Shown here: positions 4,701 through 47,969 of the stretch, piece by piece
Layout: the number at the start of each line of letters is the position of its first letter
How positions within the stretch are numbered: the first letter of the stretch is position 1
Origin: Trypanosoma brucei
Lineage: Eukaryota
DNA length: 64,000 nucleotides
Assembly (NCBI GenBank): GCA_000002445.1
Contig: CM000208.1
Location: forward strand, 1,760,001 to 1,824,000
Direction: 5' to 3'
Made by a program: the position numbers and the translations under genes
The notes under the pieces: model-generated
What the model was told of the DNA's origin: nothing
What the model saw: only the letters and a program-made list of their open reading frames with translations
Database searches by the model: none

Positions 4701-4719
4701 CACACACACACACACACAC
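4701..4719. repeat. (CA)n microsatellite
   Basis: Direct read: cacacacacacacacacac, flanked by a poly-T run. Confidence 0.85.
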
Positions 4720-20183: not shown

Positions 20184-20969
20184 TTAGAACCTCTGCACGG
20201 GTTTTTCCTGTCCCCCCAACGAATCCTCTTCCACTTCGTTTAAGGGAAATAATTCTATCTCCCCAGAGTATTCCTCTGGAGGTGCTGTTTTCGGAGAGGT
20301 AGCCGCCCCCGGACGGGTGTTTGTTAGGTGGCAGTTTGCGCTGTGGACGTAGCGTTCCAAGGGGTTTCCACCGCCACCAGTGAGCCTAAGCAATTCGTTC
20401 ATACTCTCCCGTGTCATGTTCATTTCCTCCACCCTTTCCATGCGGTGCATACCCCCCAAAGAAATAAATTCATCCTTCTCCGAGTCACTTAAATAGCAAT
20501 TCAACAACTGATTCCGCGTCGCGTGGTGCTCGCTATTTCCTACGCAAAAATCCCCTTTCCCACTGGAATACGCGCGCCGCCACACATTTATCATTTCATC
20601 CAACCTCCCCGCCGCTATCCCTGCTGCCCCTACCGCTGAGTATCCAAGATATCTCAACCTCTTCAATTCTCTCCTCTTCACCCTATTCACTTTACTCCCC
20701 ACACGTTTCAAAAACTTCGCGATCCCCGTGCACGAGGTCCAATTGCTATTTCCCCCTTCATTTCCCCTAACCTTCACAATCTTCAACCTCACCAACTCCA
20801 CCATATCCTCAAACTCCCTCACCTTCTCGGTTGCATACTTAGTTTTCGCTTGGACGAAGGCATACACCGATTTCAACTTCCCCGACGCATTACGGAGCGC
20901 TTCCGCAGCTCCACTCAAACTCAGTGCGCCACTGTCCGCAAAAGCAAAATGACAAAGAGAAAAATACAA
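20184..20969 (-). CDS. Hypothetical secreted/surface protein, possibly the 5' part of a frameshifted gene that continues into 19807-20103
   Basis: N-terminal signal-peptide-like MYFSLCHFAFADSGA. The 261-aa ORF is followed, in another frame, by ORF 19807-20103. That ORF ends in a hydrophobic GPI-signal/TM-like tail (LALLFLVVLNSYFLVCVV). The two starts differ by one frame. Confidence 0.5.
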   Translation of the reverse strand: MYFSLCHFAFADSGALSLSGAAEALRNASGKLKSVYAFVQAKTKYATEKVREFEDMVELVRLKIVKVRGNEGGNSNWTSCTGIAKFLKRVGSKVNRVKRRELKRLRYLGYSAVGAAGIAAGRLDEMINVWRRAYSSGKGDFCVGNSEHHATRNQLLNCYLSDSEKDEFISLGGMHRMERVEEMNMTRESMNELLRLTGGGGNPLERYVHSANCHLTNTRPGAATSPKTAPPEEYSGEIELFPLNEVEEDSLGGQEKPVQRF

Positions 20970-24393: not shown

Positions 24394-27300
24394 TTACGGT
24401 TTCGCTTCATCTGAGGATTGAGTTACGGGTACGGCAAAAGATGCATCAGATAAGCATCGTGGCACCTCCTCCATCATAACCTCGTTGTCGCATATGACAA
24501 CCGCGTTCTGGCGTTCCCTTCCCAAAAATAAAACTGCCGACAGCCCCACCGCCAGTAACAAAAACGTGGAACCAACCAAAAGCAGCAATCCCGCACTGAC
24601 GCTCGATCCTTTCCCCTTTGCATTCGAGAACTTGGGGGAATCCTCAGTAGAGCATCCATCACAGAATGCAACAAGCTTTAACGAACACGAAGATTTCAAG
24701 AACATTCCGTCAGTCCCGTCCGCTGCATCGCTTACCTCCGTATCATTGCAGTCACCTGTGATGTCGCAATCATCAGTTTCATTGCAGTCACCTGTGATGT
24801 TGCAATCATCAGTTTCATTGCAGTCACCTGTGATGTCGCAATCATCGGTTTCATTGCAGTCACCTGTGATGTTGCAATCATCGGTTTCATTGCAGTCACC
24901 TGTGATGTTACAATCATCGGTTTCATTGCAGTCACCTGTGATGTCGCAATCATCGGTTTCATTGCAGTCACCTGTGATGTTGCAATCATCGGTTTCATTG
25001 CAGTCACCTGTGATGTTACAATCATCGGTTTCATTGCAGTCACCTGTGATGTCGCAATCATCGGTTTCATTGCAGTCACCTGTGATGTTACAATCATCGG
25101 TTTCATTGCAGTCACCTGTGATGTTGCAATCATCGGTTTCATTGCAGTCACCTGTGATGTTGCAATCATCGGTTTCATTGCAGTCACCTGTGATGTTGCA
25201 ATCATCGGTTTCATTGCAGTCACCTGTGATGTTGCAATCATCGGTTTCATTGCAGTCACCTGTGATGTCGCAATCATCGGTTTCATTGCAGTCACCTGTG
25301 ATGTTGCAATCATCGGTTTCATTGCAGTCACCTGTGATGTCGCAATCATCGGTTTCATTGCAGTCACCTGTGATGTTACAATCATCGGTTTCATTGCAGT
25401 CACCTGTGATGTCGCAATCATCGGTTTCATTGCAGTCACCTGTGATGTCGCAATCATCAGTTTCATTGCAGTCACCTGTGATGTTGCAATCATCGGTTTC
25501 ATTGCAGTCACCTGTGATGTTGCAATCATCGGTTTCATTGCAGTCACCTGTGATGTTACAATCATCGGTTTCATTGCAGTCACCTGTGATGTCGCAATCA
25601 TCGGTTTCATTGCAGTCACCTGTGATGTTGCAATCATCGGTTTCATTGCAGTCACCTGTGATGTCGCAATCATCGGTTTCATTGCAGTCACCTGTGATGT
25701 CGCAATCATCAGTTTCATTGCAGTCACCTGTGATGTTGCAATCATCGGTTTCATTGCAGTCACCTGTGATGTTGCAATCATCGGTTTCATTGCAGTCACC
25801 TGTGATGTTACAATCATCGGTTTCATTGCAGTCACCTGTGATGTTGCAATCATCGGTTTCATTGCAGTCACCTGTGATGTTGCAATCATCGGTTTCATTG
25901 CAGTCACCTGTGATGTTGCAATCATCAGTTTCATTGCAGTCACCTGTGATGTTGCAATCATCAGTTTCATTGCAGTCACCTGTGATGTTGCAATCATCAG
26001 TTTCATTGCAGTCACCTGTGATGTTGCAATCATCAGTTTCATTGCAGTCACCTGTGATGTTGCAATCATCAGTTTCATTGCAGTCACCTGTGATGTTGCA
26101 ATCATCGGTTTCATTGCAGTCACCTGTGATGTTGCAATCATCGGTTTCATTGCAGTCACCTGTGATGTTGCAATCATCAGTTTCATTGCAGTCACCTGTG
26201 ATGTCGCAATCATCAGTTTCATTGCAGTCACCTGTGATGTCGCAATCATCGGTTTCATTGCAGTCACCTGTGATGTTGCAATCATCAGTTTCATTGCAGT
26301 CACCTGTGATGTCGCAATCATCGGTTTCATTGCAGTCACCTGTGATGTTGCAATCATCGGTTTCATTGCAGTCACCTGTGATGTTGCAATCATCAGTTTC
26401 ATTGCAGTCACCTGTGATGTCGCAATCATCGGTTTCATTGCAGTCACCTGTGATGTTACAATCATCGGTTTCATTGCAGTCACCTGTGATGTCGCAATCA
26501 TCGGTTTCATTGCAGTCACCTGTGATGTCGCAATCATCGGTTTCATTGCAGTCACCTGTGATGTTGCAATCATCGGTTTCATTGCAGTCACCTGTGATGT
26601 TGCAATCATCGGTTTCATTGCAGTCACCTGTGATGTTGCAATCATCAGTTTCATTGCAGTCACCTGTGATGTTGCAATCATCAGTTTCATTGCAGTCACC
26701 TGTGATGTCGCAATCATCGGTTTCATTGCAGTCACCTGTGATGTTGCAATCATCGGTTTCATTGCAGTCACCTGTGATGTTGCAATCATCAGTTTCATTG
26801 CAGTCACCTGTGATGTCGCAATCATCGGTTTCATTGCAGTCACCTGTGATGTTGCAATCATCGGTTTCATTGCAGTCACCTGTGATGTCGCAATCATCAG
26901 TTTCATTGCAGTCACCTGTGATGTTGCAATCATCAGTTTCATTGCAGTCACCTGTGATGTTGCAATCATCAGTTTCATTGCAGTCACCTGTGATGTCGCA
27001 ATCATCAGTTTCATTGCAGTCACCTGTGATGTCGCAATCATCGGTTTCATTGCAGTCACCTGTGATGTTGCAATCATCAGTTTCATTGCAGTCACCTGTG
27101 ATGTCGCAATCATCGGTTTCATTGCAGTCACCTGTGATGTCGCAATCATCGGTTTCATTGCAGTCACCTGTGATGTTACAATCATCGGTTTCATTGCAGT
27201 CACCTGTGATGTCGCAATCATCGGTTTCATTGCAGTCACCTGTGATGTTGCAATCATCAGTTTCATTGCAGTCACCTGTGATGTCGCAATCATCGGTTTC

Positions 27301-27840
27301 ATTGCAGTCACCTGTGATGTTGCAATCATCAGTTTCATTGCAGTCACCTGTGATGTCGCAATCATCGGTTTCATTGCAGTCACCTGTGATGTTGCAATCA
27401 TCAGTTTCATTGCAGTCACCTGTGATGTCGCAATCATCGGTTTCATTGCAGTCACCTGTGATGTTACAATCATCGGTTTCATTGCAGTCACCTGTGATGT
27501 CGCAATCATCGGTTTCATTGCAGTCACCTGTGATGTTGCAATCATCGGTTTCATTGCAGTCACCTGTGATGTTGCAATCATCGGTTTCATTGCAGTCACC
27601 TGTGATGTTACAATCATCAGTTTCATTGCAGTCACCTGTGATGTTACAATCATCGGCGTAACCCGTAGCGTTCTTGTAGTCGAAGAAGAAATCATCATGT
27701 ACGGCATCAGCAGGGGGTGTGGCTACCTCAGCATTTGATTCTTCAAAGATTGGACCTGCCTCGTTAGCCATGCCAGGCACACACGCGGTGCTGGTGAATA
27801 AGACGGTCATAAACAAAGGAATGTAGTATTTGGCGGACAT
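24394..27840 (-). CDS. CRAM: Cysteine-rich acidic integral membrane repeat protein (CRAM-like), type I membrane protein
   Basis: Signal peptide MSAKYYIPLFMTVLFTSTACVPG. About 81 tandem copies of the 12-aa unit DDC(N/D)ITGDCNET. C-terminal transmembrane span GLLLLVGSTFLLLAVGLSAVLFLG plus a roughly 40-aa cytoplasmic tail. This matches the published description of T. brucei CRAM: a 12-aa repeat encoded by a 36-bp unit, flagellar-pocket location. Confidence 0.9.
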   Translation of the reverse strand: MSAKYYIPLFMTVLFTSTACVPGMANEAGPIFEESNAEVATPPADAVHDDFFFDYKNATGYADDCNITGDCNETDDCNITGDCNETDDCNITGDCNETDDCNITGDCNETDDCDITGDCNETDDCNITGDCNETDDCDITGDCNETDDCNITGDCNETDDCDITGDCNETDDCNITGDCNETDDCDITGDCNETDDCNITGDCNETDDCDITGDCNETDDCNITGDCNETDDCDITGDCNETDDCDITGDCNETDDCNITGDCNETDDCDITGDCNETDDCDITGDCNETDDCNITGDCNETDDCNITGDCNETDDCDITGDCNETDDCNITGDCNETDDCDITGDCNETDDCNITGDCNETDDCNITGDCNETDDCDITGDCNETDDCNITGDCNETDDCNITGDCNETDDCNITGDCNETDDCNITGDCNETDDCDITGDCNETDDCDITGDCNETDDCNITGDCNETDDCDITGDCNETDDCNITGDCNETDDCNITGDCNETDDCDITGDCNETDDCNITGDCNETDDCDITGDCNETDDCDITGDCNETDDCNITGDCNETDDCNITGDCNETDDCNITGDCNETDDCNITGDCNETDDCNITGDCNETDDCNITGDCNETDDCNITGDCNETDDCNITGDCNETDDCNITGDCNETDDCNITGDCNETDDCNITGDCNETDDCNITGDCNETDDCNITGDCNETDDCDITGDCNETDDCDITGDCNETDDCNITGDCNETDDCDITGDCNETDDCNITGDCNETDDCNITGDCNETDDCNITGDCNETDDCDITGDCNETDDCDITGDCNETDDCNITGDCNETDDCDITGDCNETDDCNITGDCNETDDCDITGDCNETDDCNITGDCNETDDCNITGDCNETDDCNITGDCNETDDCNITGDCNETDDCNITGDCNETDDCDITGDCNETDDCNITGDCNETDDCNITGDCNETDDCDITGDCNETDDCNITGDCNETDDCNITGDCNETDDCDITGDCNETDDCNITGDCNETDDCDITGDCNDTEVSDAADGTDGMFLKSSCSLKLVAFCDGCSTEDSPKFSNAKGKGSSVSAGLLLLVGSTFLLLAVGLSAVLFLGRERQNAVVICDNEVMMEEVPRCLSDASFAVPVTQSSDEAKP
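24732..27650. repeat. 36-bp tandem repeat array (about 81 units) inside the CRAM-like CDS
   Basis: Plus-strand unit: tcattgcagtcacctgtgatgt[t/c]gcaatcatc[g/a]gtt. Three polymorphic positions per unit: AAC/GAC (N/D), ACC/ACT (synonymous Thr) and TGC/TGT (synonymous Cys). Confidence 0.95.
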
Positions 27841-35338: not shown

Positions 35339-36700
35339 TCACCTGTGAAGAAAGTCGATAATAAGCCGCAGAGGTCCCTCAACATACGCCTGCAGGCAGC
35401 ACTTCGTTTCCATCATTTGCATCCACTCTGCCTCACGCAACATTTCATCGAGTGTGACCCGAATAATGTCTTCAGCACTACCACCACCAACACAATACTG
35501 CCCAAGCGGGAAAGAACTCCCGGTGCCTGGAAGGCCCTCCAACGCCGCTTTCGCCCGCTGTATCACCTGCTTTAGCACTCGCCTATCATGTTCAGTTAAT
35601 GGCGCTCGCCCTTTGTTGTCATGCGAGAGACAAGAAGGACGGACACCAACCCAGCGAATGGGAAGAAGCGCAGCCACAACGGATGTCGACAATTCGGGGA
35701 CACGTTCCGCTGGCTGACATCGCCGGCCGCGGTTGATATCCTCCCCGAAAAGTCCCATGAAAGTAAGGGCAATGCGCAATCCATGAGGGTCCCCATCAAC
35801 AAGAACAAGAATCGGCAGCTCAGGTAACTCACGATGAAGGCTGCGAAGAAAAAGACGGGAGGCTCGGCACGGATAGCCCTTACTGCACAAGTAAGCACAT
35901 CGGTCTGAAATAGATTCACTCCCCAGTGCGCTCTTAACATCCGCAAGGGTGTGCAGCGTGCTTTCCTTTTCCACTACAACAAGTGCAGCTGTGACACCAT
36001 TGCCACGACCCGCTCCTGCAGCCCTGAAGTTGTGCGCATGTAAACCAAGTGTTGTGCTGACAAGTACACCGGAAATGTGATGTTTGGCATTGACCTCCAC
36101 AGAAGGCACTTTGGCACTGGGAACGCACGTCGGCAACTCCTGTGCACCACCCGACACTAATGAGGTCGAGGTTGCGGAAACTGTAGGAATGTCAAATGCA
36201 AGGTTTCCAAGAAGAATGCTCTTCCCACTCGCTCCAATACGAAGGTCCTCACGGGTGTAGCGACGGCGCTCACCGGCAGATGATGCTGGTGGAAGCGGGC
36301 AAACACAACTCATCCATCGACAGAGTCGCTCAATGCTGCAGTGGGTGTCGCGCTGTCCGTTTGGAAACAGTTCTGTATTGCGGTAGTACACATCCCGTTC
36401 AGTGCACAGTAAACCCTCCTGAACCATATTAACGACGCAACAAAGCACATGCAAAGCCTGGGCATCATACCGCAATAGTTCTGAGCACCTCCCTCTTAAT
36501 GTTTGCATCTCATCACCCACCGCAGTACCATGGGGGAGTAAAGGCACCTGCTGCCCCTGCACAATGAGACTGAGGAAGTGAAAACTGTGCTTTTGTGAAG
36601 TCCTCGCGCGCGCACCAGTGGGAGGTGGAGAAAATAGAGAAGTGAGATACGCCCGAGTGATGGCCTCCGCCGCGTTCATCACCTCCTTGTCACTGAGCAT
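35339..36700 (-). CDS. SPO11: SPO11 / topoisomerase VI subunit A-like meiotic DNA double-strand-break protein
   Basis: Catalytic-tyrosine motif CTERDVYYRN (family consensus RDIYY). Toprim region LVVVEKESTLHTLA (consensus VLVVEKEAVF), CSKGYPCRASRLFLRSL (consensus TGKGYPD..TR.FL) and LVLVDGDPHGLRI (DxD). Confidence 0.85.
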   Translation of the reverse strand: MLSDKEVMNAAEAITRAYLTSLFSPPPTGARARTSQKHSFHFLSLIVQGQQVPLLPHGTAVGDEMQTLRGRCSELLRYDAQALHVLCCVVNMVQEGLLCTERDVYYRNTELFPNGQRDTHCSIERLCRWMSCVCPLPPASSAGERRRYTREDLRIGASGKSILLGNLAFDIPTVSATSTSLVSGGAQELPTCVPSAKVPSVEVNAKHHISGVLVSTTLGLHAHNFRAAGAGRGNGVTAALVVVEKESTLHTLADVKSALGSESISDRCAYLCSKGYPCRASRLFLRSLHRELPELPILVLVDGDPHGLRIALTFMGLFGEDINRGRRCQPAERVPELSTSVVAALLPIRWVGVRPSCLSHDNKGRAPLTEHDRRVLKQVIQRAKAALEGLPGTGSSFPLGQYCVGGGSAEDIIRVTLDEMLREAEWMQMMETKCCLQAYVEGPLRLIIDFLHR

Positions 36701-37774: not shown

Positions 37775-40700
37775 CTACATCTGGTGTATCATCGCAAGGG
37801 CAACGCGAAATTCTTCGTATGTCATGCGGCCGTTACCACGTCGCCTCATTCCTTCGAACATCTTTGACATCTTGCCCTTGGACGGAGGCTGTCCAAAGAA
37901 ATCCAACATCTTGATGTCTCTTTCGAAGGCTTCCCCATCGATGGTACTGCGCAAAATGTCGCATATTGAGCTGCGGTTGCCTGCAGACGATGCGGCAACG
38001 CGGGACAAGAGGGAACTGACGTAGCCCTGCTTCCGCAGCTCCTCTTTACACTCGAGTTTGCCGCCATAATGAACCCACAGACGTGGCACATCTTCCGCGG
38101 ACGCGTGCAGAAGACTCTCCCACAACCATCCCTTTAGTGCTGCCTCATCCGAATTTCTGGCGGGATTACCAAAGTAATGCTGTGGGTCGCACACCCAATC
38201 ATCTTCCCTCGATTTCGGTCTTTCGCACTCCACATCGGGCCCATTTCCACTGACCTTTTCATCAAGTCCAATGTGTGCCGGTGCCAGGGGGACAAAAGTC
38301 CCTTCCCTCTCAGTAAGGACGTCAATAAACTGCTTGGTGTCGAGCCCATGCACGAAGCTAAACATGTGACCAGTGTAGTATCCATCGTTTAACTCGTGTC
38401 GCTTACTACCTGTGTAACGAACTAGCGGGTTCTCCGCCCACTCTGACAAGTCGGTGGGGTCATGATCAACGTGACATAACGCACGAACAAGTGGGTCAGG
38501 CGCAAAATCTCCCGTGCCGCACCACAGATCGCGCTCCTTGTACGCTTGCAACGGCCCTTCACTCGCTAACACGACGTTATCGATACGGTTGGGTCTTACT
38601 GGAAGGTCATAATCCTCCCAATCAGAGAAGAGTTCACCGCGGAAAGAAGTGGGAACCGCTCTCTCGGGGTCAGGGTCACCAATGACATCGTGCAGAAACT
38701 TTTTCCAACTGCAGTCCCGCTGGTCCCAGCTCACTATATAACAGTGGACGTCATTGACGCCAGGCTCGCTCTCGATCATGCGTTCGCATTCAAAAGGAAT
38801 AGCGGCGTTGACAACGTAAACATCTTCTGCATGGAACTTCGTTATTTCCATATCGTAGGCAAGATGGACATGCTGCTGTTGCGGGAGGGACCACTTAACG
38901 TAGAGTTGCGAGGGTGTCAACGAGAAGCGGATGAGGGCCTCACGGGCGCCAACAACACGTTGCGACTTCGCGGCCTCTTTCCATTCCTCACCGAACGCGT
39001 CGTAGAAATCGTCCTCTCCACCAGGTGTCACATCCAAATAGCCATTGGTACACGTTGTTGCGTAGAGCATGGGGGAGGAAAACTGTTTTTCGATAAGTGT
39101 CGGGGTCGTTCTCTTGCGAACCTCCCGCTTTATCCGTATACCGTTTTCATTGAGAACCCTCTCCAATAGACCCATCACCTTCACGTTGCCTGCTGCATGA
39201 GGTTTCAAAATGATCATAGCGGTATTCCTGTAGAGCAATGAGGGGCCCGTCTCCGCCGGCTGCGGGGCCCTTGAAGAAACTGTCATGGGCCCTTCGGCTT
39301 CCTCCCCTAGTGTGGAATGTCGCTCCTGCGTTGGCGTGCTAGCGGTGCCATCACGTCCTCCGTCATGAGCACACTCATTAGCGGGGAGTCGCGCCGCTCC
39401 AGTTGGATCAACCTCCTCCTCCTCGCGCTTCAACTCCTCCGACAACGCGGTCATCATAAACATGACACGGGAGGTGTCACATTGGCCAAGATGTTCGAAT
39501 ATGCTCATCTTGATTCCTCCGGACAACACCTCAGGGTTTTCGACCCATGTTTGTAGCACACACTCGAGCACTCCTTTCCGCAAAAGCAAAGAACCAAGAT
39601 AATCTTCTTGAACGGAGTACTTCACACACTTCGTACGCTCTCTAATCGCCTGGATGGCACCTTGACTAACGTGCAGACCGTTACGCAGCTCATCTGGTGG
39701 TTCAGTTATCCCGTAATCTCTCCATCTGCGATTCAGTTGTCCCCGAATGCTCGTTGGCACAGCATCCGCTGGGGACTCGCTCCCAACAACCTCCTCTAAG
39801 AATGTGGGCCAGTCCATCTCACGGGGCTCCCACGACACGACATACCAGTGATGCATCGCCTCAGATGATTCGAGGAAGCATTTCAACCCCGGCATGAGGC
39901 CATTTACGACAAACACGCCATCAAACGGCAACTCAAAAATTTCAAGGCCTGGGCGAACCATCAACCGCCTTGATGCCGCCGTACACTTATAGAAGAGTTG
40001 AACAGGTGTAATGTTACTTAGCGCAACCAGCGCCTCGTACGCGTTTACCAGTACGCCGCCCTCAAGCAGGTTGCACCAACTAACCCCAAAACTCAGCTGC
40101 ACTCTGTCCCTTTCCTTCCGTGACAATTTAATAGTTGAAACATCGCAGTCCGCGTACTCCAGCTCAACAGCGTAAAGGTGCTGAACAAAATCGCGCTCAC
40201 GTAAGGTGGCAGCGCTCACATCACCTTCCTCGTCAATCCGCACCCTCGCGCGCGCAAAGACCGTCTCAACCGTCAAAGCAAAGCCACGGCACAGGGAGCC
40301 GGTCTTCATCAACACAAAAGCAGAGTTACGCGGCGCCTCGGAAAGATGTGCAAAATTCTCCGACTGGAGAAGTTGTAATGCCTCCTTGCTGTTCATCCTG
40401 CGCGCCATATCGAATAGGAATCGGCCGTCGCCACAGGGGGTACGTGGGTTTGTTAGACACCTTCTCATTACGTATGGTGTGATAGACAGTTCATCCATTC
40501 CAAAACGACACACCGCGTCACGTTTGATTCCCAACGAAAGCCACATTTGTTTCAAACGCATCGCCTCCAGAGGACTCGCGGATGCCATCACCGCACCCTC
40601 AAACGAGTCCGGTGGCCGCCGTAGCCCGGCAGCCTTCCACTCCTCACATAGGACCTGCTGCAAGCTTCCCGGTCTGGCTTCCTTAAGGTAAGGATCCCCA

Positions 40701-43700
40701 ATGATGTAATCCATAAAATGAGCGTAATCCATGTCGCTGCTATTCCACGATACTGTCAAAAAATATTTCATGTTGGCCTCACCGCAAAACGTTTCCACAG
40801 TGTGAAGGGCAAACCCGTTAACAACATAAACGTCATGGTCGGGCATCTTACCGACGAAACAGTTTGGGGCTATGCGCGCCAGAGGTTCACACATCAGCCA
40901 CCTATCCCTTAGGTATGCCGCCGAGTAGTCAAACTCCACAGCTGCGTCCACAGCGTTGAACACCTTTCGCGGGTCCCACATCGTTCCAAAAGTGCTGAGG
41001 AAAAGGGACAGGGCCTCCGAGTCGAGTGCATACTGGTAGGGAGATTGTCTGACTGCGTATTTGAATACGCCGTCCTGGACGGCGTGAGCCACGCTGCTTA
41101 GATCCTGATTTCCACCAACCATGCTTCCACTTCCGTCGATCCGTATGTTATAGTGGCGCAGAAAATCGGCGATATAGTTAATCACACGATCACTTGCTTC
41201 CGATGAAGTGCAGGCGGGATTGACCACAATGAAGGCGTAGTTCCGCTTCAAGTTTCCCTCTTCATCCTTCAGGGTTGACGAGGTGTCCCCTTCGGGGCAG
41301 AGAGGCTTCCCTTCCGCCCGCAGCACGCCTTTACATCCGTCAACACACTCTTTTCCAGTGTCCCTTTTCACCTTGTACTCGTGGCTGGACGAGAGCTCGG
41401 GGGGAACCGGCACAAATCTTGGTGCCTGGGGTGAAACGATGTGCATTCCACCAGACGACTGCAGCCCGATTAGTTGCGCTATCAGAAGTGGGTTCTCCGT
41501 GCATAACTTGTCGAACGCATCGCCCATGGACTCCAATGGCTCCTCTCTGTGTCGCACAAGGGGGTTCTCAAGTATCTTACGAAGATACCCGGGGTCTACG
41601 CCACCCATAACCAGTAACCGTCCGAAAACATCCTGTTCCAAGCTTACCCCAAGCCAAGAGACACGATCTGCAAGCCCCTCAACAGGCGTGGCAGAGGCGC
41701 AAAAACCGTTGTCAATACCGTCTGGCTGCCGTTGCAGACCGAGCTCCACCCAAGATTTGTACAGTGTGTGGCGAAGAGATGATTCCTCAGCCTTTTCTGG
41801 CACATCTGTACCGATCACGTACCGGTGGAAATCCCCCCACGTCATTATCTCGCTATCCCATGACACAACGTACCAAGAAACGTGGGAGCCAGCGTACATT
41901 CGCGAACGCAAATAAGGATAGAACCCATTGACAACATAAAGCCCCTCCCTCTCTAAGTAAGCAATGTAAAGGGAAGGAGCCAAGCACACCTTACGTGGTG
42001 CCTCATCCCAATCCTTTAGCAACTGCAAAACGCCAATCCTATCCACCGCCTGCGCTGCATTGATAACCAAATGAAGGTTCATCGCGGTATTCCACGTGAT
42101 ACCGAAGGTAGCATCAAACTCTGCCATCTGTTTTGTGCTGATGGGAATCTCGTGCACTGCGCGTGTCATGGCGTTGCGATAGAGGGTGCACTGCTTGCGG
42201 TCGGCAAGTTCCTTATCAAAGACTTCCGCCATGGGTACGCGACCCGAAGAAATTACCTCAATACGGTGTTGCAACAGTGCTTTTGGGATCCACGCTTCCA
42301 CATGCTTTGTGCATGCGTGCGGTTTGACCCACAGAAATGCGTAATTCATTTTCAAACCGCGCAAAAAACGTGAAGTAATAACCTTCATGCGACGAACCAC
42401 TTCAGAACTCTGTACGTGATACGAAAGATCAGACCTTGTATATTGTGGCAGAAAACATCCGGTTGCGCTCCAGTTCTTCCTTGATGTCCATGACTTCGGA
42501 GGTGGAGACGACGTATCATCAATATTCTTGATCGCCTTTACCCCTTCCTCCTCCTCTTCATCATCCTCATCTTGCGGGTTGCGTTCACCGTCTATGTACG
42601 TCGTAAGCATTGAAAGCGGCACACCTTCCAGTAGGAGGCGCTGTACAAAGTGGTCCTCCGGTAACTGAACGTCCAGCCAAATTTCTCGATCAACGGTACC
42701 CTCCAAAGGACCTTGCGAAACTGAAACGGCAGCAGACCAACGCGAGGCTGGCTTGAATGGCAACCCGAAACCCTTCCACTCATCCGCAAACGTGCGCTGC
42801 AAGCTTCCCTCCGTTGCTTTGTAGGGAATACAGTCGTCACTGAAACCAACCAAGCGCTCAGAGAGGTCGTGCCAAGTCCAAACATCCTCCTTCCACTCCA
42901 CATCAAAGACGTGAGTCACGCTCCCAGGTTTTCCATGGGTCTCCCGAACAAAGGGAACAAAACCATTTAGCACGTATATTTCGTGGTCGGTTAGGTGAAC
43001 CACCCAGCAGTTTGAGTGAAGCTGCACCGGTTGTACTGACTCCCACAGATGAAGGAGCTCCGTTGGTGTTAAACCCAGTACCTCGCAAGCAGAGGTTGCG
43101 CCCATCAACTGTCCACTGATAACACAACCCTCCCACGTATATCCGAATTGTGCATGAAACTGCTTTTTGATCGATGAACTGACGTTTCCGCACATATCAT
43201 CTTTTTTGAAGTCAGCCCAGTGCGCCAGCTTAAGGAATTCATTGCTGCCGAGGTACCGTTTCTCGACGCTTCTGCTCAATAATGTTAGCTCCCGCACCAC
43301 CGCTACATCAGCGGCAGCAAAACAATTCCTCACAGTTTCTATAGTCCACTCGTTGACGGCAAAGGGCCTCAGTACTACCACTGCTCGGTTGACCGATCGT
43401 TCGTTGTACTCTGCAAGAACATGCTGCTCTGCCTCGCACATAAGGTCCACGACTTCAGAAGTTTGTAAGTTCTCTAGAAGGTCAAAAACATGACCGGATC
43501 GCACCCCATCGGCCATTACAACCGCCGGATTCGACCGCCAGCCGTACAGCAGCGCACCTGTCAACCCACGCTCTTGCAGCCGTAGTGTGAGTGGATCGTG
43601 TGTGAGTGGTGATCCGATCCACAGGTAGCGCTCCAGCACTGCCTCCAGCGGACCCGCCGAGGCGTGGACCCCGTTGTTTGTTGTTGTGGGAATGCCCTGC

Positions 43701-45340
43701 AGCCCCAGTTCGCGCCAGCGGTTTTGTATCAACCCGCGCAAACTGGTTGGCGGTGCTTTGGCGGGGTTCGTACACCCAACCAGCTCCTCACGGAAGCTCC
43801 TCCAAGTCAGATGTTCTTCGAGCCATGAAACCACGTAGCACGTTACCTTCGCATCCTTCCGCTCATAGCTGTCCCGAATGTATGGAAAGAAGCCGTTAAT
43901 CACAAAAGCATTCTCCTCAGAGAGGCGCGCAACGTACGCTCCAGGGGCAACCTTCAACACATCAGTGCATGAGCACCACATCTCGTACAACTCGGTGGAG
44001 GATATATCCCCAAGGATGCGCAAGGCAGAATCAGCATTCCACACCCGTCCACTCCGAACCAACTCCTTCCAGGACATGCCAAACCGCTCCTGGAATTCTT
44101 GCATTGTTTTGGGGCTCAACTCGATCAAATCGGGTGTTAAAACAGCGGCGTACTTCGCAATGGTTCCGTAATGCTGCTCCATCACGTGCCTCGACGCTAT
44201 TTCGCTTCCAGAGATATGGTGTTGAGACAAGATTTGTACGCCCTTAACCTGTGTGAGTCGTTCCTCCACCAGCGCTCGGGTTTCGGGGGTGTTGGCGTGG
44301 GGTTTCACAAACAGCAGGGCCCTGTTGCGTACCTCGTCTGGATCTTCATCGTTTAGTACAATAGTCCAATCAGCTATGCGTGAAGGTGAAATCGGAGTAT
44401 CAGCTTGATTCTTCCGTTCACTTAGGCACTTTTGTCTCTCATCAGCATAAACAGCGGCCACTAGACAGGTAGCCTCACTACTCTGCATGTCTTCTGTAAT
44501 CTCAAATACAGAGCGACACGCGCCCTTGTAGCTGATGGGGGGATTTTTCATCAGTCCCTCAACAAAACCTCGCCCAACACCCTCTTGCAGCAGCTGCCGC
44601 CCAAAGTCATCTTCGTTGATACCACGATGCATCCACACAGAGCGGAGCGCAAGTGCCTCAATGGGCCCATTGGCATATATCAGGCCGTTGTCCGCAATGC
44701 TTGGTTGTTCACTGAGCCCGTATTCCTCCCAGTTCTCGTACATCAATCGGCGGAGGGACGTTGAGTCGGCTTCGCTGGGGTCCGCCGCGCCGATCACCTC
44801 TAAACAAAACCGTTTCCACGAGTACCGCGCCTCGGGCCATGAAAGGACGAAGAAACAAATCTTACTAGTGGGAGCGGTGAAGGAATTAAATAGCAGCGGG
44901 TAAAAGCCATTAATTACATATAGCCCTTCCTCTTTGAAATATGATACATAGAACCCGTACTCAAGCCGAACCCGCAATTTGGATGACCACCAACGGGCGT
45001 TTAATCCTTCCATAGTTGTATTGAGGGCTACCATAGCATCCTCGGGGGTCAGCACACGCCGTTCCTCCATCGCGACGGTCCAAGATTCACCAAACGCAGA
45101 GAAAAAAAGCATGGCAGACTCCTCTGAAGCGAATGTCCCCATTTCTAGAGAGGAGGACATGACACGCGCCGCAGTTGCGCTGTAATGTCGCTCCACATAC
45201 GCGCCCCGGCTAACCTCCTGGCCTGTCAGTAGCTGCATGTCGTCCACGCGAATCCCATGGGAGTCAAAATGATCTCGTGCCTTCTCAATAAACGTATCCC
45301 TGCATGCACTGGGTTTAACTAGTACGAATGATGTATTCAT
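37775..45340 (-). CDS. Giant (2521 aa) protein with about seven tandem divergent nucleoside-diphosphate-kinase-like domains and a C-terminal EF-hand-like segment
   Basis: Seven repeats of the pattern [AF][LFV].VKP.A...(beta1), then EG/D.YV[VI]NGF.P, then YVVSW...W..F, then a Kpn-loop-like stretch, then NG..AS.GP. The last element aligns to NDK NIIHGSD: His is kept in repeats 2 and 6 (NGVHASAGP, NGLHVSQGA) and lost in the others. C-terminal RRRGNGRMTYEEFRVAL resembles an EF-hand. Confidence 0.75.
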   Translation of the reverse strand: MNTSFVLVKPSACRDTFIEKARDHFDSHGIRVDDMQLLTGQEVSRGAYVERHYSATAARVMSSSLEMGTFASEESAMLFFSAFGESWTVAMEERRVLTPEDAMVALNTTMEGLNARWWSSKLRVRLEYGFYVSYFKEEGLYVINGFYPLLFNSFTAPTSKICFFVLSWPEARYSWKRFCLEVIGAADPSEADSTSLRRLMYENWEEYGLSEQPSIADNGLIYANGPIEALALRSVWMHRGINEDDFGRQLLQEGVGRGFVEGLMKNPPISYKGACRSVFEITEDMQSSEATCLVAAVYADERQKCLSERKNQADTPISPSRIADWTIVLNDEDPDEVRNRALLFVKPHANTPETRALVEERLTQVKGVQILSQHHISGSEIASRHVMEQHYGTIAKYAAVLTPDLIELSPKTMQEFQERFGMSWKELVRSGRVWNADSALRILGDISSTELYEMWCSCTDVLKVAPGAYVARLSEENAFVINGFFPYIRDSYERKDAKVTCYVVSWLEEHLTWRSFREELVGCTNPAKAPPTSLRGLIQNRWRELGLQGIPTTTNNGVHASAGPLEAVLERYLWIGSPLTHDPLTLRLQERGLTGALLYGWRSNPAVVMADGVRSGHVFDLLENLQTSEVVDLMCEAEQHVLAEYNERSVNRAVVVLRPFAVNEWTIETVRNCFAAADVAVVRELTLLSRSVEKRYLGSNEFLKLAHWADFKKDDMCGNVSSSIKKQFHAQFGYTWEGCVISGQLMGATSACEVLGLTPTELLHLWESVQPVQLHSNCWVVHLTDHEIYVLNGFVPFVRETHGKPGSVTHVFDVEWKEDVWTWHDLSERLVGFSDDCIPYKATEGSLQRTFADEWKGFGLPFKPASRWSAAVSVSQGPLEGTVDREIWLDVQLPEDHFVQRLLLEGVPLSMLTTYIDGERNPQDEDDEEEEEGVKAIKNIDDTSSPPPKSWTSRKNWSATGCFLPQYTRSDLSYHVQSSEVVRRMKVITSRFLRGLKMNYAFLWVKPHACTKHVEAWIPKALLQHRIEVISSGRVPMAEVFDKELADRKQCTLYRNAMTRAVHEIPISTKQMAEFDATFGITWNTAMNLHLVINAAQAVDRIGVLQLLKDWDEAPRKVCLAPSLYIAYLEREGLYVVNGFYPYLRSRMYAGSHVSWYVVSWDSEIMTWGDFHRYVIGTDVPEKAEESSLRHTLYKSWVELGLQRQPDGIDNGFCASATPVEGLADRVSWLGVSLEQDVFGRLLVMGGVDPGYLRKILENPLVRHREEPLESMGDAFDKLCTENPLLIAQLIGLQSSGGMHIVSPQAPRFVPVPPELSSSHEYKVKRDTGKECVDGCKGVLRAEGKPLCPEGDTSSTLKDEEGNLKRNYAFIVVNPACTSSEASDRVINYIADFLRHYNIRIDGSGSMVGGNQDLSSVAHAVQDGVFKYAVRQSPYQYALDSEALSLFLSTFGTMWDPRKVFNAVDAAVEFDYSAAYLRDRWLMCEPLARIAPNCFVGKMPDHDVYVVNGFALHTVETFCGEANMKYFLTVSWNSSDMDYAHFMDYIIGDPYLKEARPGSLQQVLCEEWKAAGLRRPPDSFEGAVMASASPLEAMRLKQMWLSLGIKRDAVCRFGMDELSITPYVMRRCLTNPRTPCGDGRFLFDMARRMNSKEALQLLQSENFAHLSEAPRNSAFVLMKTGSLCRGFALTVETVFARARVRIDEEGDVSAATLRERDFVQHLYAVELEYADCDVSTIKLSRKERDRVQLSFGVSWCNLLEGGVLVNAYEALVALSNITPVQLFYKCTAASRRLMVRPGLEIFELPFDGVFVVNGLMPGLKCFLESSEAMHHWYVVSWEPREMDWPTFLEEVVGSESPADAVPTSIRGQLNRRWRDYGITEPPDELRNGLHVSQGAIQAIRERTKCVKYSVQEDYLGSLLLRKGVLECVLQTWVENPEVLSGGIKMSIFEHLGQCDTSRVMFMMTALSEELKREEEEVDPTGAARLPANECAHDGGRDGTASTPTQERHSTLGEEAEGPMTVSSRAPQPAETGPSLLYRNTAMIILKPHAAGNVKVMGLLERVLNENGIRIKREVRKRTTPTLIEKQFSSPMLYATTCTNGYLDVTPGGEDDFYDAFGEEWKEAAKSQRVVGAREALIRFSLTPSQLYVKWSLPQQQHVHLAYDMEITKFHAEDVYVVNAAIPFECERMIESEPGVNDVHCYIVSWDQRDCSWKKFLHDVIGDPDPERAVPTSFRGELFSDWEDYDLPVRPNRIDNVVLASEGPLQAYKERDLWCGTGDFAPDPLVRALCHVDHDPTDLSEWAENPLVRYTGSKRHELNDGYYTGHMFSFVHGLDTKQFIDVLTEREGTFVPLAPAHIGLDEKVSGNGPDVECERPKSREDDWVCDPQHYFGNPARNSDEAALKGWLWESLLHASAEDVPRLWVHYGGKLECKEELRKQGYVSSLLSRVAASSAGNRSSICDILRSTIDGEAFERDIKMLDFFGQPPSKGKMSKMFEGMRRRGNGRMTYEEFRVALAMIHQM

Positions 45341-45911: not shown

Positions 45912-47969
45912 CTAACGAGGAAATCGGAGCGCCGCGTTATACTCATTTATGAGCGCTACGGCGTCGCCCGGAATAGCCAACATGGCAGTGTTTAACTGAA
46001 CCAAATAAGCGGCCACCTGCATACCCTCCGCCACCCCTGACACAAGGCTCCGAATCTTTTCTACCTGCTGTTGGTGAAGGTGTATAGCGTTTTCATTTTC
46101 TAGAAGCGCACGCATAAGCGTTGCCACGTCATGGCCATGAAACACGCACTCACCCCTGTGGCAACTCTCCCCATAAGTTAGCGGAATGGTTCGTCCAGCG
46201 TTGCGGTCGACAAACATGCTAAAATCCACTAATTTTTCCCAGTGCACTGGAATTAGCAATGCCGAGGTCATGTCCTGAGCACCGCCACCATCAGGTAGAG
46301 CAAAGAAAATGTGGTTCAATCCGTAGAGATTACCGTGCACCGTGCGTCTCGCAACAAGGTCCAACAGCATCTTGAGTATTAGCTTCATACACGTAGGAAA
46401 CGAGCAAGGCGACAGGGGAAGAAGAGAGAGCGGAACGCTGCGGTACCCTTTAGCCAGTGTAATGACGGTCAGCCCCCCATCAGAGTAGCGGTAGCCGGCA
46501 ACATGCACAGCGGATGTACTGCCAGTGACATACGATAATCCAAGTGCCGCACGATGTGCCTCATTTACTCCCTCTTGCACTGCTCTTACGCTCCAGCGGT
46601 AAATAAGAGCCTGCGGAGGTGAGCCCATGGCAGAAGAACAAGAAGGGATAACTGAGGGCACGCCCTGCGTTGGACCCTCCGTCATTTCCTGCGCCTCGTA
46701 CACATCAGCAGAGGCATGGTGGCACACGATACGGTAAAAACGGCCTTCCAGAACCAAAACTTTGCCAGGCGATACCTGCGGTGCGGACGCATCACTTGTG
46801 TAAAATTCGCCACCTGAGCAGAACGCCTCAACGTTTGCGTTAACAAACGACAAAACGCTAGCAGCGGGGATGGTTTGGCTTTGAGCTCCATAAACCTTAG
46901 TAGGTATAGTGACGGGATGATGAACAGTGGACTGCGGCGTCGGTCCGCACTTGGGTGGGAAAAGCTGCTTTGTCGTGCGAAACTCCGACAACCCCTCTCC
47001 TGCGCGTTGCGATGCGGACCCATCCGCAGGACATTCAGGAGACGTTTTGGCGTGGAGCACCGAACTACTTGACGTTACGCCCTCCCCTCCTAGTCTATCG
47101 TTGACGGCACCTTGCCACTCCAAAGGAGACGCTGTGCTGCTTCGCAGAGGTGGCGCCGCCGAGGCTAATTGGCTCGTTTGGTTCTCGGACGACTGCCCAA
47201 GATCTTCACCAGTAGAGAGCAGCACTGGAAACGCGGAATGACGACCATCTGATATCACCTCTGATTGAAATAGTAATTGATCCCGTGGTTGTTGCCGCGG
47301 CTGCCCGACAACACCTTCTGACCATGGAAAGGGGTTCACGCATGGATTCGCTCTCCTATCAGGGTAAGTGGAAAATTGAGACATCGGAACCGTGCCAGCC
47401 GCTGCCGCCGCTGGTGTTAGCGTGTACGACTCCGATGGGGCGACCAAGCTGGAAAACCGCTGAGTTGATGCAGACACCTCAAAGTTACTTTCTGTGTCAT
47501 TCATTGGGGGCAAGTTGACATATGGTGTTGGTCGGTACACGGAGTCCCTGCCCTCGTGGTCCTGTTCCTCCACGTGGCCCACTGGGCGGGTCACAGAAGC
47601 GTGGTTTCTCTCATTACTAACACCAGTACCCGAAGCGAGACGCACAGCAGAGTTTCGTGTGGCATCCCCTCGTCCCTCCACACGGAGGAGTTCGTGTTGC
47701 ACCTCCGACTCGATTATTTGGTAGAGTACACACAGTTCACGACCACAGTTATCACGCACTGGAAACTGGGAACGAAACACTACATTGGGGTCTCGTGAAG
47801 TGAGCAGGCCATTCCTTCTCTTGGCATCATCCGTCTGGCATCGCAAACCCTCCACAGAGGTGGCATCTTCATCCTCTTTCATGTAATCGAGCAATGACAT
47901 GCGCCTGATGTAAGTCCTGTCAAACCCGTAGTAGGCCTTGTAGGGTGAATACGCATTGACTTCTTCCAT
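45912..47969 (-). CDS. Hypothetical protein with C-terminal protein-kinase-like (probable pseudokinase) domain
   Basis: HGNLYGLNHIF sits where HRDLKPEN is expected (catalytic Asp replaced by Asn). KLVDFSMF sits where DFG is expected. The N-terminal half is Ser/Pro-rich and low complexity. Confidence 0.55.
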   Translation of the reverse strand: MEEVNAYSPYKAYYGFDRTYIRRMSLLDYMKEDEDATSVEGLRCQTDDAKRRNGLLTSRDPNVVFRSQFPVRDNCGRELCVLYQIIESEVQHELLRVEGRGDATRNSAVRLASGTGVSNERNHASVTRPVGHVEEQDHEGRDSVYRPTPYVNLPPMNDTESNFEVSASTQRFSSLVAPSESYTLTPAAAAAGTVPMSQFSTYPDRRANPCVNPFPWSEGVVGQPRQQPRDQLLFQSEVISDGRHSAFPVLLSTGEDLGQSSENQTSQLASAAPPLRSSTASPLEWQGAVNDRLGGEGVTSSSSVLHAKTSPECPADGSASQRAGEGLSEFRTTKQLFPPKCGPTPQSTVHHPVTIPTKVYGAQSQTIPAASVLSFVNANVEAFCSGGEFYTSDASAPQVSPGKVLVLEGRFYRIVCHHASADVYEAQEMTEGPTQGVPSVIPSCSSAMGSPPQALIYRWSVRAVQEGVNEAHRAALGLSYVTGSTSAVHVAGYRYSDGGLTVITLAKGYRSVPLSLLPLSPCSFPTCMKLILKMLLDLVARRTVHGNLYGLNHIFFALPDGGGAQDMTSALLIPVHWEKLVDFSMFVDRNAGRTIPLTYGESCHRGECVFHGHDVATLMRALLENENAIHLHQQQVEKIRSLVSGVAEGMQVAAYLVQLNTAMLAIPGDAVALINEYNAALRFPR

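What the first reader, a model, noticed from the sequence alone, without database searches (positions are those of the whole stretch)
37775..45340. 2521-aa single-exon protein with about seven tandem divergent NDK-like domains
The ORF is an internal seven-fold repeat of about 300-aa units. Each unit carries the NDK secondary-structure landmarks: a beta1 KP motif, an EG.YV.NGF.P stretch corresponding to NDK EGLNVVKTGR, and a Kpn-loop-like region. Each also has a segment aligned to the NDK catalytic NIIHGSD. The catalytic His is retained only in units 2 and 6 (NGVHASAGP, NGLHVSQGA) and substituted in the other five. That pattern suggests a mostly pseudo-enzymatic scaffold with one or two potentially active phosphotransfer sites. 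Multi-NDK proteins (NME8/NME9/RSP23-type) are typically axonemal, and the C-terminal EF-hand-like segment fits Ca-regulated flagellar proteins. Seven NDK folds in one polypeptide would be exceptional.
Basis: partly seen in the sequence, partly recalled or inferred. Interest (0 to 1): 0.72.

Follow-up and report, generated by a model that had tools for sequence, protein, structure and literature searches.

The report
Trypanosome FLAM1: seven tandem NDK-like domains
The ORF is the already catalogued Trypanosoma brucei flagellar protein FLAM1 (Tb927.10.7230), a chain of seven enlarged nucleoside-diphosphate-kinase-like domains in which only the second keeps a complete catalytic site; the reading is correct, but the gene is already annotated.

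Summary
Window 37775-45340 (- strand) is one 2521-aa ORF made of seven homologous units of about 300 aa, followed by a 176-aa tail.

The protein is identical to T. b. brucei TREU927 XP_822958.1 / UniProt Q38AP0, auto-named "Nucleoside-diphosphate kinase". Its T. equiperdum and T. cruzi orthologues are named Flagellar Member 1. Tb927.10.7230 (FLAM1) is listed in the detergent-insoluble DRC1-APEX2 axonemal proximity proteome.

This "long NDK" unit is not kinetoplastid-specific. About 700 cluster representatives match at E≤1e-30, mostly single-domain protist proteins. There is at least one bacterial case, and some members are fused to adenylate kinase, EF-hand, Dpy-30 or IQ modules.

Unit 2 keeps all ten catalytic or nucleotide-binding residues in every orthologue. 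Unit 6 keeps the His but lacks two phosphate ligands. The other five units are degenerate. Bodo saltans keeps the His in all seven.

The tail is a degenerate EF-hand pair.

Verdict: correct reading of a known, functionally uncharacterised flagellar protein. Moderate to low novelty.

The parts
37775..45340 (-). Complete ORF of FLAM1 (Tb927.10.7230; XP_822958.1 / Q38AP0), 2521 aa plus stop codon
   Evidence: exact sequence identity to the TREU927 protein
44450..45340 (-). Unit 1 (aa 1-297). Long-NDK domain, degenerate. Keeps the K12, Y52, F60, R105 and N115 equivalents. H118 is Ile, S120 is Ala, E129 is Leu.
   Evidence: Pfam NDK partial hit on aa 3-58
43430..44335 (-). Unit 2 (aa 336-637). Long-NDK domain with the complete catalytic set (K346, Y, F484, conserved Arg of alpha3, T, R, N556, H559, S561, E). 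It is the one fully equipped site.
43664..43666 (-). Codon of His559, equivalent to the NDK phospho-accepting His118, in unit 2
42509..43399 (-). Unit 3 (aa 648-944). Strongly degenerate long-NDK domain (R105 to Q, N115 to A, H118 to S). Joined to unit 2 by a 10-aa linker that is predicted to be a continuous helix.
41459..42355 (-). Unit 4 (aa 996-1294). Long-NDK domain. H118 is Cys1214 in T. brucei and T. congolense, but His in T. vivax, T. cruzi, T. theileri and T. rangeli.
40358..41251 (-). Unit 5 (aa 1364-1661). Strongly degenerate long-NDK domain (K12 to N, R105 to Q, N115 to G, H118 to M).
39443..40336 (-). Unit 6 (aa 1669-1966). Long-NDK domain that keeps K, Y, R105, N115, H1890, S and E. 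It lacks the alpha3 Arg, T94 and, in T. brucei, F60. A 7-aa linker to unit 5 is conserved from Bodo to Trypanosoma.
39671..39673 (-). Codon of His1890, the H118 equivalent in unit 6
38306..39235 (-). Unit 7 (aa 2036-2345). Degenerate long-NDK domain (H118 to L, F60 to A). Keeps K12, R105, N115, S120 and E129.
37778..38080 (-). C-terminal EF-hand-pair remnant (aa 2421-2521). EF1 loop is split by an insertion. EF2 loop is RRRGNGRMTYEE (aa 2499-2510).

Best explanation
The ORF encodes FLAM1 (Flagellar Member 1, Tb927.10.7230), a ~283-kDa component of the detergent-insoluble flagellar skeleton of Trypanosoma brucei.

Architecture (shown). The protein is an array of seven 'long NDK' modules plus a degenerate EF-hand pair. 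Each module is a nucleoside-diphosphate-kinase alpha/beta core enlarged in three places: a ~90-aa alpha/beta insertion in the alphaA-alpha2 nucleotide-binding hairpin, a Kpn loop longer by ~11 residues, and a ~60-aa helical C-terminal extension.

Mechanism (inferred).
- Module 2 is a working NDP kinase. It would transfer the gamma-phosphate of ATP through phospho-His559 to NDPs, regenerating GTP and other NTPs locally in the flagellum.
- Module 6 is at best a weakened site.
- Modules 1, 3, 4, 5 and 7 are pseudo-kinase domains. They are kept under purifying selection as rigidly linked structural or docking elements that hold the active module on the axoneme or paraflagellar-rod scaffold.
- The ancestor had seven His-bearing modules and a Pfam-recognisable EF-hand pair, as still seen in Bodo saltans. 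Trypanosomatids progressively lost catalytic residues and Ca2+ ligands.
For: Identity and location:
- The window protein is identical to XP_822958.1 / Q38AP0 on the 4.05-Mb TREU927 contig. The T. equiperdum and T. cruzi orthologues are named Flagellar Member 1.
- Tb927.10.7230 = Flagellar Member 1 is listed in Table S1 of PMC8141408, the DRC1-APEX2 detergent-insoluble proximity proteome.

Fold:
- The unit profile hits almost only NDKs among PDB sequences. Both halves are collinear (profile 3-54 with NDK 1-52; profile 181-241 with NDK 84-136).
- AF2 model of unit 2: pLDDT 96, pTM 0.91.
- Foldseek: the 50 best matches listed are all NDKs, with TM 0.53-0.82 normalised to the target.

Catalytic residues:
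- Unit 2 keeps K12, Y52, F60, the alpha3 Arg, T94, R105, N115, H118, S120 and E129 in all 12 orthologues.
- Unit 6 scores 7/10 in T. brucei. Units 1, 4 and 7 score 5/10. Units 3 and 5 score 2/10.

Enzyme context of the family:
- Single-unit relatives keep the full catalytic set.
- Some are fused to adenylate kinase (PF00406), EF-hand, Dpy-30 or IQ modules.

Selection on dead units:
- There is 1:1 positional orthology between species. T. brucei and T. cruzi are 47-65% identical in every unit.

Rigid linkage:
- The u2-u3 pair model has pTM 0.75, with one continuous helix from the end of u2 into beta1 of u3. The short u2-u3 and u5-u6 linkers are conserved in most orthologues.

Ancestral state:
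- Bodo saltans P0014 and P0010 keep His in all seven units. P0010 also has a Pfam-significant EF-hand pair, and the Bodo protein is named 'EF-hand domain-containing protein' by UniRef.
Against: - No enzymatic data exist for FLAM1 or for any member of the long-NDK subfamily in the literature I could search.
- The Arg88 equivalent sits one residue out of register relative to canonical NDKs. The ~90-aa insertion lies at the mouth of the nucleotide pocket, so substrate or activity could differ.
- Canonical NDKs need hexamer or tetramer assembly for stability. Whether modules of a tandem array can substitute for that is unknown.
- Sub-flagellar position (axoneme versus PFR) is not established by what I could read. 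FLAM1 is absent from all solved T. brucei axoneme structures.
- pTM is only an indirect measure of inter-domain confidence, and no PAE was available.
Confidence: 0.6

Rival explanations
1. FLAM1 is a purely structural pseudo-enzyme. None of the seven modules catalyses phosphotransfer. The array acts only as an elongated scaffold or spacer in the flagellar skeleton. The conservation of unit 2 would reflect nucleotide binding needed for folding or stability.
For: - Five of seven sites are clearly dead and unit 6 is incomplete.
- Related ~2700-aa seven-unit proteins (P0017, P0021, P0024) have no NxxHxS motif in any unit, so wholly non-catalytic arrays can persist.
- The protein is detergent-insoluble and close to the axoneme.
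- Rigid helical connectors are predicted between units.
Against: - All ten catalytic and ligand residues of unit 2 are invariant across Trypanosoma, Leishmaniinae-like and bodonid orthologues. Every neighbouring unit drifted. That pattern is hard to explain without selection on chemistry.
- Family members are fused to adenylate kinase.
Confidence: 0.25
2. FLAM1 is a nucleotide sensor or regulator. The modules bind NDP/NTP or cyclic nucleotides without turnover and relay the energy or second-messenger state to the motility machinery.
For: - Units 1, 4, 6 and 7 retain part of the nucleotide-binding set (K12, R105, N115 and, in some, F60) while lacking His or phosphate ligands.
- Canonical NDK folds can bind cAMP. 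The top Foldseek match is human NDPK-C with cAMP, but this is only a fold match.
- Ancestral EF-hand pair, and family fusions to EF-hand and IQ modules.
Against: - There is no direct evidence of binding.
- The EF-hand ligands are lost in T. brucei.
- The idea does not explain the complete catalytic set of unit 2 better than catalysis does.
Confidence: 0.12
3. The repeat is not NDK-related. The motif resemblance is chance and the units adopt another fold.
For: Pfam sees only two partial, individually sub-threshold stretches when units are scanned one by one.
Against: - Profile-to-PDB hits are almost exclusively NDKs.
- The whole protein passes the Pfam gathering score.
Confidence: 0.01

Closest known systems
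Canonical nucleoside diphosphate kinases (Pfam PF00334; e.g. human NME1-4, Pyrobaculum aerophilum NDK 1xqi, T. brucei NDKB 4fkx)
   Different: Each unit is ~300 aa instead of ~150. It has a ~90-aa insertion between alphaA and alpha2, a Kpn loop ~11 residues longer, a ~60-aa C-terminal extension, and the alpha3 Arg shifted by one position. Seven units lie on one chain, five of them without the His. Sequence identity to canonical NDKs is only 12-25%.
Axonemal multi-NDK proteins of NME group II (NME7/CFAP67 with DM10 + 2 NDK; NME8/TXNDC3 and sea-urchin IC1 with thioredoxin + 3 NDK; NME5/RSP23 in radial spokes)
   Different: No DM10, thioredoxin, Dpy-30 or IQ domain. The unit belongs to the enlarged 'long NDK' subfamily rather than group II. 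Seven units rather than 1-3. The protein is not present in any solved axoneme structure.
Single-domain 'long NDK' proteins of protists and some bacteria (e.g. Guillardia theta L1JPP1 = P0062, Mucochytrium quahogii A0A7S2SHS7 = P0058, Sediminispirochaeta MAG protein P0246)
   Same: They match the whole 300-aa unit profile end to end, including the insertion and the C-terminal extension (260-350 bits). Identity to the units is 30-43%.
   Different: They are one unit long, or 2-4 units in a few proteins. They keep the full catalytic set. They are often fused to adenylate kinase, EF-hand, Dpy-30 or IQ modules rather than arrayed seven-fold. None is characterised, none has a solved structure, and no Pfam model covers the full unit.
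Bodo saltans orthologue (A0A0S4IQT6 / B6DT84, 'EF-hand domain-containing protein', P0014)
   Same: Same seven-unit plus EF-hand architecture. The short u2-u3 and u5-u6 linkers are also present.
   Different: All seven units keep the catalytic His. Linkers are mostly 7 aa. Units are more alike (36-47% against 22-32% in T. brucei). The tail is shorter (108 aa).

Membership tests
Nucleoside diphosphate kinase superfamily (PF00334 / NDK fold) | Alpha/beta ferredoxin-like NDK fold (beta1-alpha1-beta2-alphaA-alpha2-beta3-alpha3-Kpn loop-beta4-alpha4) | tested here: met
Nucleoside diphosphate kinase superfamily (PF00334 / NDK fold) | Sequence-profile match at Pfam's gathering score | tested here: met
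   The whole protein scores 32.1 bits against a cut-off of 27. Single units scanned alone are below the cut-off (17.8 and 16.7 bits) or give no hit. The family profile against PDB sequences returns NDKs at E = 5e-5.
Catalytically competent NDP kinase (EC 2.7.4.6) | Phospho-accepting His118 with its partners Ser120 and Glu129 | tested here: met
   Met in unit 2 (H559) and unit 6 (H1890). Not met in units 1, 3, 4, 5 and 7, which read I, S, C, M and L.
Catalytically competent NDP kinase (EC 2.7.4.6) | Full phosphate and base ligand set (Lys12, Tyr52, Phe60, Arg88, Thr94, Arg105, Asn115) | tested here: inconclusive
   Complete only in unit 2. There the Arg88 equivalent is displaced by one residue, although that Arg is conserved in all His-bearing family members. 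Unit 6 lacks the Arg88, Thr94 and Phe60 equivalents.
Catalytically competent NDP kinase (EC 2.7.4.6) | Measured NDP kinase activity, or autophosphorylation on His | not testable with these tools
   No biochemical report was found.
NME group II axonemal proteins (NME7, NME8, NME9) | N-terminal DM10 or thioredoxin domain preceding the NDK domains | tested here: not met
   The Pfam scan of the whole protein at E≤10 shows only NDK, plus a weak DUF7545 hit.
RSP23 / NME5-type radial-spoke NDK | Dpy-30 or IQ calmodulin-binding motifs next to the NDK domain | tested here: not met
   None found in FLAM1. Such fusions do exist in single-unit relatives.
EF-hand Ca2+-binding proteins | Helix-loop-helix pair recognisable by profile | tested here: met
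   The tail family profile A3 hits calmodulin-like protein 5 (2e-8), troponin C, NCS-1 and calmodulin. The tail of orthologue P0010 passes Pfam EF-hand_7 at E = 1e-9. The T. brucei tail alone gives only E = 0.17.
EF-hand Ca2+-binding proteins | Canonical 12-residue loop with acidic or polar ligands at positions 1, 3, 5 and 12 | tested here: not met
   In T. brucei, EF loop 1 is interrupted by a ~35-40-aa insertion and has Ala at position 12. EF loop 2 is R-R-R-G-N-G-R-M-T-Y-E-E, with Arg at positions 1 and 3.
T. brucei FLAM1 (Tb927.10.7230) | Sequence identity with the catalogued gene product, and flagellar proteome membership | tested here: met
   Exact match to XP_822958.1 / Q38AP0. The T. 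equiperdum and T. cruzi orthologues are named Flagellar Member 1. Tb927.10.7230 'Flagellar Member 1' is in Table S1 of PMC8141408. The link between the Tb927 identifier and the accession rests on orthologue names and chromosome-10 context. It is not a direct table look-up.

The most novel reading that the evidence does not exclude
Two linked readings are not excluded.

1. The ~300-aa 'long NDK' unit could be an ancient and so far undescribed NDK subfamily. It occurs in bacteria and many protist lineages, is often fused to adenylate kinase or flagellar docking modules, and has no structure, no dedicated Pfam model and no biochemistry.

2. Kinetoplastid FLAM1 could be a seven-fold array of that unit that began as an all-active, Ca2+-regulated multi-site phosphotransfer machine, as in Bodo. 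In parasitic trypanosomatids it would then have been converted stepwise into a one-site enzyme embedded in six pseudo-kinase scaffold modules. Losses are still ongoing: unit 4 His to Cys occurred only in T. brucei and T. congolense.
Probability: 0.45. Interest if true: 0.5.

Novelty: already known. Interest (0 to 1): 0.35.

Why it matters
Flagellar motility is essential for trypanosome viability and transmission. How ATP and GTP are supplied along a 20-µm flagellum is still explained mostly by adenylate and arginine kinases.

FLAM1 is a large, conserved, kinetoplastid-specific arrangement of NDK modules on the flagellar skeleton, with no animal counterpart of this architecture. Two experiments follow directly from knowing that exactly one module (unit 2, His559) is fully intact: an activity assay and an H559A knock-in. 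The domain boundaries also allow a search of unassigned cryo-EM and cryo-ET densities.

The analysis also shows that Pfam counting under-detects this enlarged NDK subfamily.

None of this changes the fact that the gene is already catalogued, named and auto-annotated as an NDK. The finding is a correct rediscovery rather than a new system.

Tried and rejected
- Self-BLAST of the whole protein returned only the identity hit, so it was no use as a dot-plot. I replaced it with unit-against-unit BLASTP and HMM searches.
- phmmer of the whole protein against PDB sequences gave no hit. Only the profile of aligned units reached NDKs.
- hhalign of the unit alignment against a single NME2 sequence in global mode was uninformative for the N-terminal half (probability 2.3%).
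- Foldseek against the AlphaFold database (afdb50) was not available.
- The original FLAM paper (Subota et al. 2014) and the 2025 T. brucei doublet-microtubule paper are not held in the library. Sub-flagellar localisation of FLAM1 could therefore not be read directly.
- Full-text searches for 'FLAM1', 'Flagellar Member 1' and 'Tb927.10.7230' gave only passing mentions.
- I rejected the idea that FLAM1 is an NME7/8/9 or RSP23 orthologue. It lacks the accessory domains and the unit belongs to a different subfamily.
- I rejected the idea that the seven units arose recently. Positional orthology is 1:1 across trypanosomatids and the seven-unit plan is present in Bodo. Unit-to-unit orthology between Bodo and Trypanosoma could not be resolved, because there is only a weak diagonal signal.
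- No tRNA genes are present in the window.
Full report
**1. Observation**

The window carries a single uninterrupted ORF at 37775..45340 on the minus strand. It starts with ATG and encodes 2521 aa. It lies in a run of same-strand genes, as expected for a kinetoplastid polycistron.

Landmark motifs recur seven times. A MAFFT alignment of the seven segments shows a common unit of ~290-300 aa. The repeat is far beyond chance:
- Unit-against-unit BLASTP gives E = 9e-14 to 6e-43, at 22-32% identity.
- A unit HMM places seven domains at aa 1-297, 336-637, 648-944, 996-1294, 1364-1661, 1669-1966 and 2036-2345. Each scores 267-399 bits. A 176-aa tail follows.

**2. Identity of the gene**

- The protein is identical, residue for residue, to T. 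brucei brucei TREU927 XP_822958.1 / EAN78130.1 / UniProt Q38AP0. NCBI calls it 'hypothetical protein, conserved'. UniRef calls it 'Nucleoside-diphosphate kinase'. It sits on a 4,054,025-bp contig.
- The T. equiperdum protein in the same 90% cluster is named 'Flagellar Member 1'.
- The T. cruzi orthologue is 53% identical over full length and has the same name.
- In the supplement of PMC8141408, 'Tb927.10.7230 | Flagellar Member 1' is listed in Table S1. That table is the DRC1-APEX2 proximity proteome of the detergent-insoluble pellet.
- FLAM1-8 were defined by the intact-flagellum proteome of Subota et al. 2014, as cited in bioRxiv 10.1101/2023.07.09.548290. I could not read that paper.
- Flanking genes are KKT14, a type IIB topoisomerase/Spo11-like protein, a DEAH helicase and a phytochelatin-synthase-like protein.

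The finding is therefore the known gene FLAM1.

**3. Are the units NDK domains?**

Pfam is weak here. The whole protein passes the NDK gathering score (32.1 against 27 bits), but through two partial stretches only. Scanned singly, only unit 1 (N-terminal half) and unit 2 (C-terminal half) give sub-threshold hits.

A profile built from 31 units of several orthologues (A1) gives a clearer answer:
- Searched against all PDB sequences, it returns almost exclusively NDKs (best 3vvt_A, E = 5e-5).
- Profile positions 3-54 align with NDK residues 1-52, and positions 181-241 with NDK 84-136.

Structure prediction agrees:
- AlphaFold2 on unit 2 with this alignment gives a very confident model (pLDDT 96, pTM 0.91).
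- Foldseek against the PDB: the 50 best matches listed are all NDKs, at probability 1.0 and TM 0.53-0.82 normalised to the target.
- A second model, of units 2+3, predicts the same element order for the degenerate unit 3 (pLDDT 87, pTM 0.75).

Since all units are mutually homologous, seven NDK folds in one chain is established as far as prediction allows.

**4. Anatomy of a unit**

Relative to a 150-aa NDK, each unit has three additions:
- a ~90-aa alpha/beta insertion between helix alphaA (ending at the Tyr52-equivalent 'HY') and helix alpha2 (starting at 'NGF[FY]P', where Phe is the base-stacking Phe60);
- a Kpn loop ~11 residues longer between Arg105 ('SLRG') and Asn115 ('NGvHAS');
- a ~60-aa helical C-terminal extension after 'E..ER..W'.

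EG.YV.NGF.P is not the counterpart of EGLNVVKTGR. It is the strand plus turn that leads into alpha2. NDK beta3 'VVAMVWEG' corresponds to 'YVVSW.E'.

**5. Which sites are intact?**

I mapped ten NDK residues (K12, Y52, F60, R88, T94, R105, N115, H118, S120, E129) onto 84 units from 12 orthologues.

| Unit | T. brucei score | Notes |
|---|---|---|
| 2 | 10/10 | All ten kept in every orthologue. The Arg88 equivalent is shifted by one position, but is conserved in all His-bearing family members. |
| 6 | 7/10 | Keeps K, Y, R105, N, H, S, E. Lacks the Arg, Thr94 and Phe60. |
| 1, 4, 7 | 5/10 | See unit 4 note below. |
| 3, 5 | 2/10 | Strongly degenerate. |

- Unit 4 has His in T. vivax, T. cruzi, T. 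theileri, T. melophagium and T. rangeli, but Cys in T. brucei and T. congolense. That is a recent loss.
- In Bodo saltans (P0014) and in P0010, an unidentified bodonid-like protein from ENA, all seven units keep the His.
Only unit 2 is a fully equipped site.

**6. Conservation and architecture**

- Every full-length orthologue has seven units.
- Among trypanosomatids the units are 1:1 positional orthologues. T. brucei against T. cruzi gives 61, 64, 49, 65, 47, 54 and 58% identity for units 1-7. The dead units are therefore under purifying selection. Units 3 and 5 evolve fastest.
- Linkers are 7, 7, 7, ~30, 7 and ~40 aa in bodonids, and 38, 10, ~45, ~70, 7 and ~70 aa in Trypanosoma. The short u2-u3 and u5-u6 linkers are conserved in most orthologues but expanded to ~42-56 aa in P0011, P0012 and P0015.
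- In the pair model, the last helix of unit 2 runs continuously into beta1 of unit 3 (helix 294-314). This suggests rigid two-unit blocks, each pairing a His-bearing unit with a strongly degenerate one. That is an inference; no PAE was available.

**7. The unit is a widespread 'long NDK' subfamily**

An exhaustive HMMER search of 1.84 billion cluster representatives with the unit profile found 2591 hits at E≤1e-3 and 696 at E≤1e-30. Most are single-unit proteins of 300-450 aa that match the profile end to end.

- Named members come from Guillardia theta (UniProt L1JPP1, 'NDK-like domain-containing protein'), Mucochytrium, Prymnesium, Durusdinium, Neobodo, Aplanochytrium, Rhodomonas and Paratrimastix.
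- At least one member sits in a genuinely bacterial context, next to MoaC/MoeA/radical-SAM genes (L001).
- These proteins keep the full catalytic set.
- Some are fused to adenylate kinase (PF00406), EF-hand, Dpy-30 or IQ modules.
- Two- to four-unit arrays also exist. So do ~2700-aa seven-unit relatives with no His at all.
- No member is in the PDB, and Pfam has no model for the full unit.

**8. The tail**

The last ~100 residues align with the EF-hand pair of the bodonid orthologue, which passes Pfam EF-hand_7 at E = 1e-9. The T. brucei tail alone gives EF-hand_1 at E = 0.17. A profile of nine orthologous tails hits calmodulin-like protein 5 (2e-8), troponin C, NCS-1 and calmodulin.

In Trypanosoma, EF loop 1 is split by a ~35-40-aa insertion and has Ala at position 12. 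EF loop 2 reads RRRGNGRMTYEE. The tail is therefore EF-hand-derived, but canonical Ca2+ binding is unlikely in T. brucei.

**9. How it most likely works**

Shown:
- It is a component of the detergent-insoluble flagellar skeleton.
- It has seven NDK-fold modules.
- One site is complete and invariant (unit 2). One is partial (unit 6). Five are dead but conserved.

Inferred:
- Unit 2 performs ping-pong phosphotransfer through His559 and supplies NTPs locally.
- The other modules act as rigid scaffold or docking elements.
- The lineage evolved from an all-active, Ca2+-regulated ancestor.

The main rival is a wholly non-catalytic scaffold (0.25). It is favoured by the His-less seven-unit relatives, but disfavoured by the selective, complete conservation of unit 2. 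A nucleotide-sensor role (0.12) is possible. A non-NDK fold is refuted.

**10. Comparison and novelty**

FLAM1 works like the axonemal multi-NDK proteins (NME7/CFAP67, NME8, RSP23) in being a flagellar, partly pseudo-enzymatic NDK array. It is not a member of those families: it has no DM10, thioredoxin, Dpy-30 or IQ domain, and its unit belongs to a different subfamily.

The gene is already catalogued, named and auto-annotated as an NDK, and its flagellar association is published. I rate it 'already known'.

The details that appear to be absent from the literature I could search are:
- the boundaries of the enlarged unit;
- the single intact site;
- the stepwise loss of catalytic residues from Bodo to Trypanosoma;
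- the breadth of the long-NDK subfamily.

Interest 0.35.

Noticed in passing
window 24394-27840 (-), tandem array 24743-27656: A 1148-aa ORF contains 81 copies of a 36-bp repeat (96% matches). The repeat encodes a 12-aa Cys-rich acidic unit (DCNITGDCNETD) after a hydrophobic, signal-like N-terminus. It resembles the procyclic cysteine-rich acidic membrane protein CRAM (from memory, not tested). The exact sequence is not in the protein collection, probably because copy number varies.
   Followed up: partly
window 57009-60476 (-): A 1155-aa protein (EAN78136 / Q38AN4) with a phytochelatin-synthase-like domain. It lies six accession steps after FLAM1 (EAN78130). Table S1 of PMC8141408 lists Tb927.10.7290 as Flagellar Member 2, so this may be FLAM2. 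The correspondence is unverified.
   Followed up: partly
window 45912-47969 (-) and 35339-36700 (-): The immediate neighbours of FLAM1 are kinetoplastid kinetochore protein 14 (KKT14) and a type IIB topoisomerase/Spo11-like protein. There is no functional link to the flagellum, as expected for trypanosome polycistrons.
   Followed up: yes
window ~18750-20200, and 4000-8000: ORFs of 200 aa or more are on the + strand up to ~18.7 kb and on the - strand from ~20.2 kb. That is a convergent strand-switch region. GC falls to 0.31-0.35 at 4-8 kb. No tRNA genes are present in the window.
   Followed up: no
P0010 (ENA, 2306 aa), units 1, 3 and 6: Three units of this bodonid-like orthologue share an identical ~50-aa stretch (FVINGFYPANREKFTAPGKSIHWYVVSWNEADLSWKDFRAKIIGATNPADA). 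This suggests gene conversion between units, or assembly collapse.
   Followed up: no
L001 6001-6909 (+): A single-unit long-NDK gene (P0246, 302 aa) lies in a bacterial metagenome contig, between UbiA/MoeA/MoaC/radical-SAM genes and NfeD/Band_7 genes. The enlarged NDK subfamily is therefore not restricted to eukaryotes.
   Followed up: partly
P0017, P0021, P0024 (Logan assemblies, ~2675-2703 aa): These are seven-unit relatives of FLAM1 from unidentified organisms in which no unit retains the NxxHxS catalytic motif. They are fully pseudo-enzymatic arrays.
   Followed up: no
P0232, P0234, P0054, P0236, P0237 (ENA/JGI, 379-515 aa): These are natural fusions of adenylate kinase (PF00406) with a single long-NDK unit. 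The fusion points to a coupled AMP/ADP/NDP phosphotransfer role for the subfamily.
   Followed up: no
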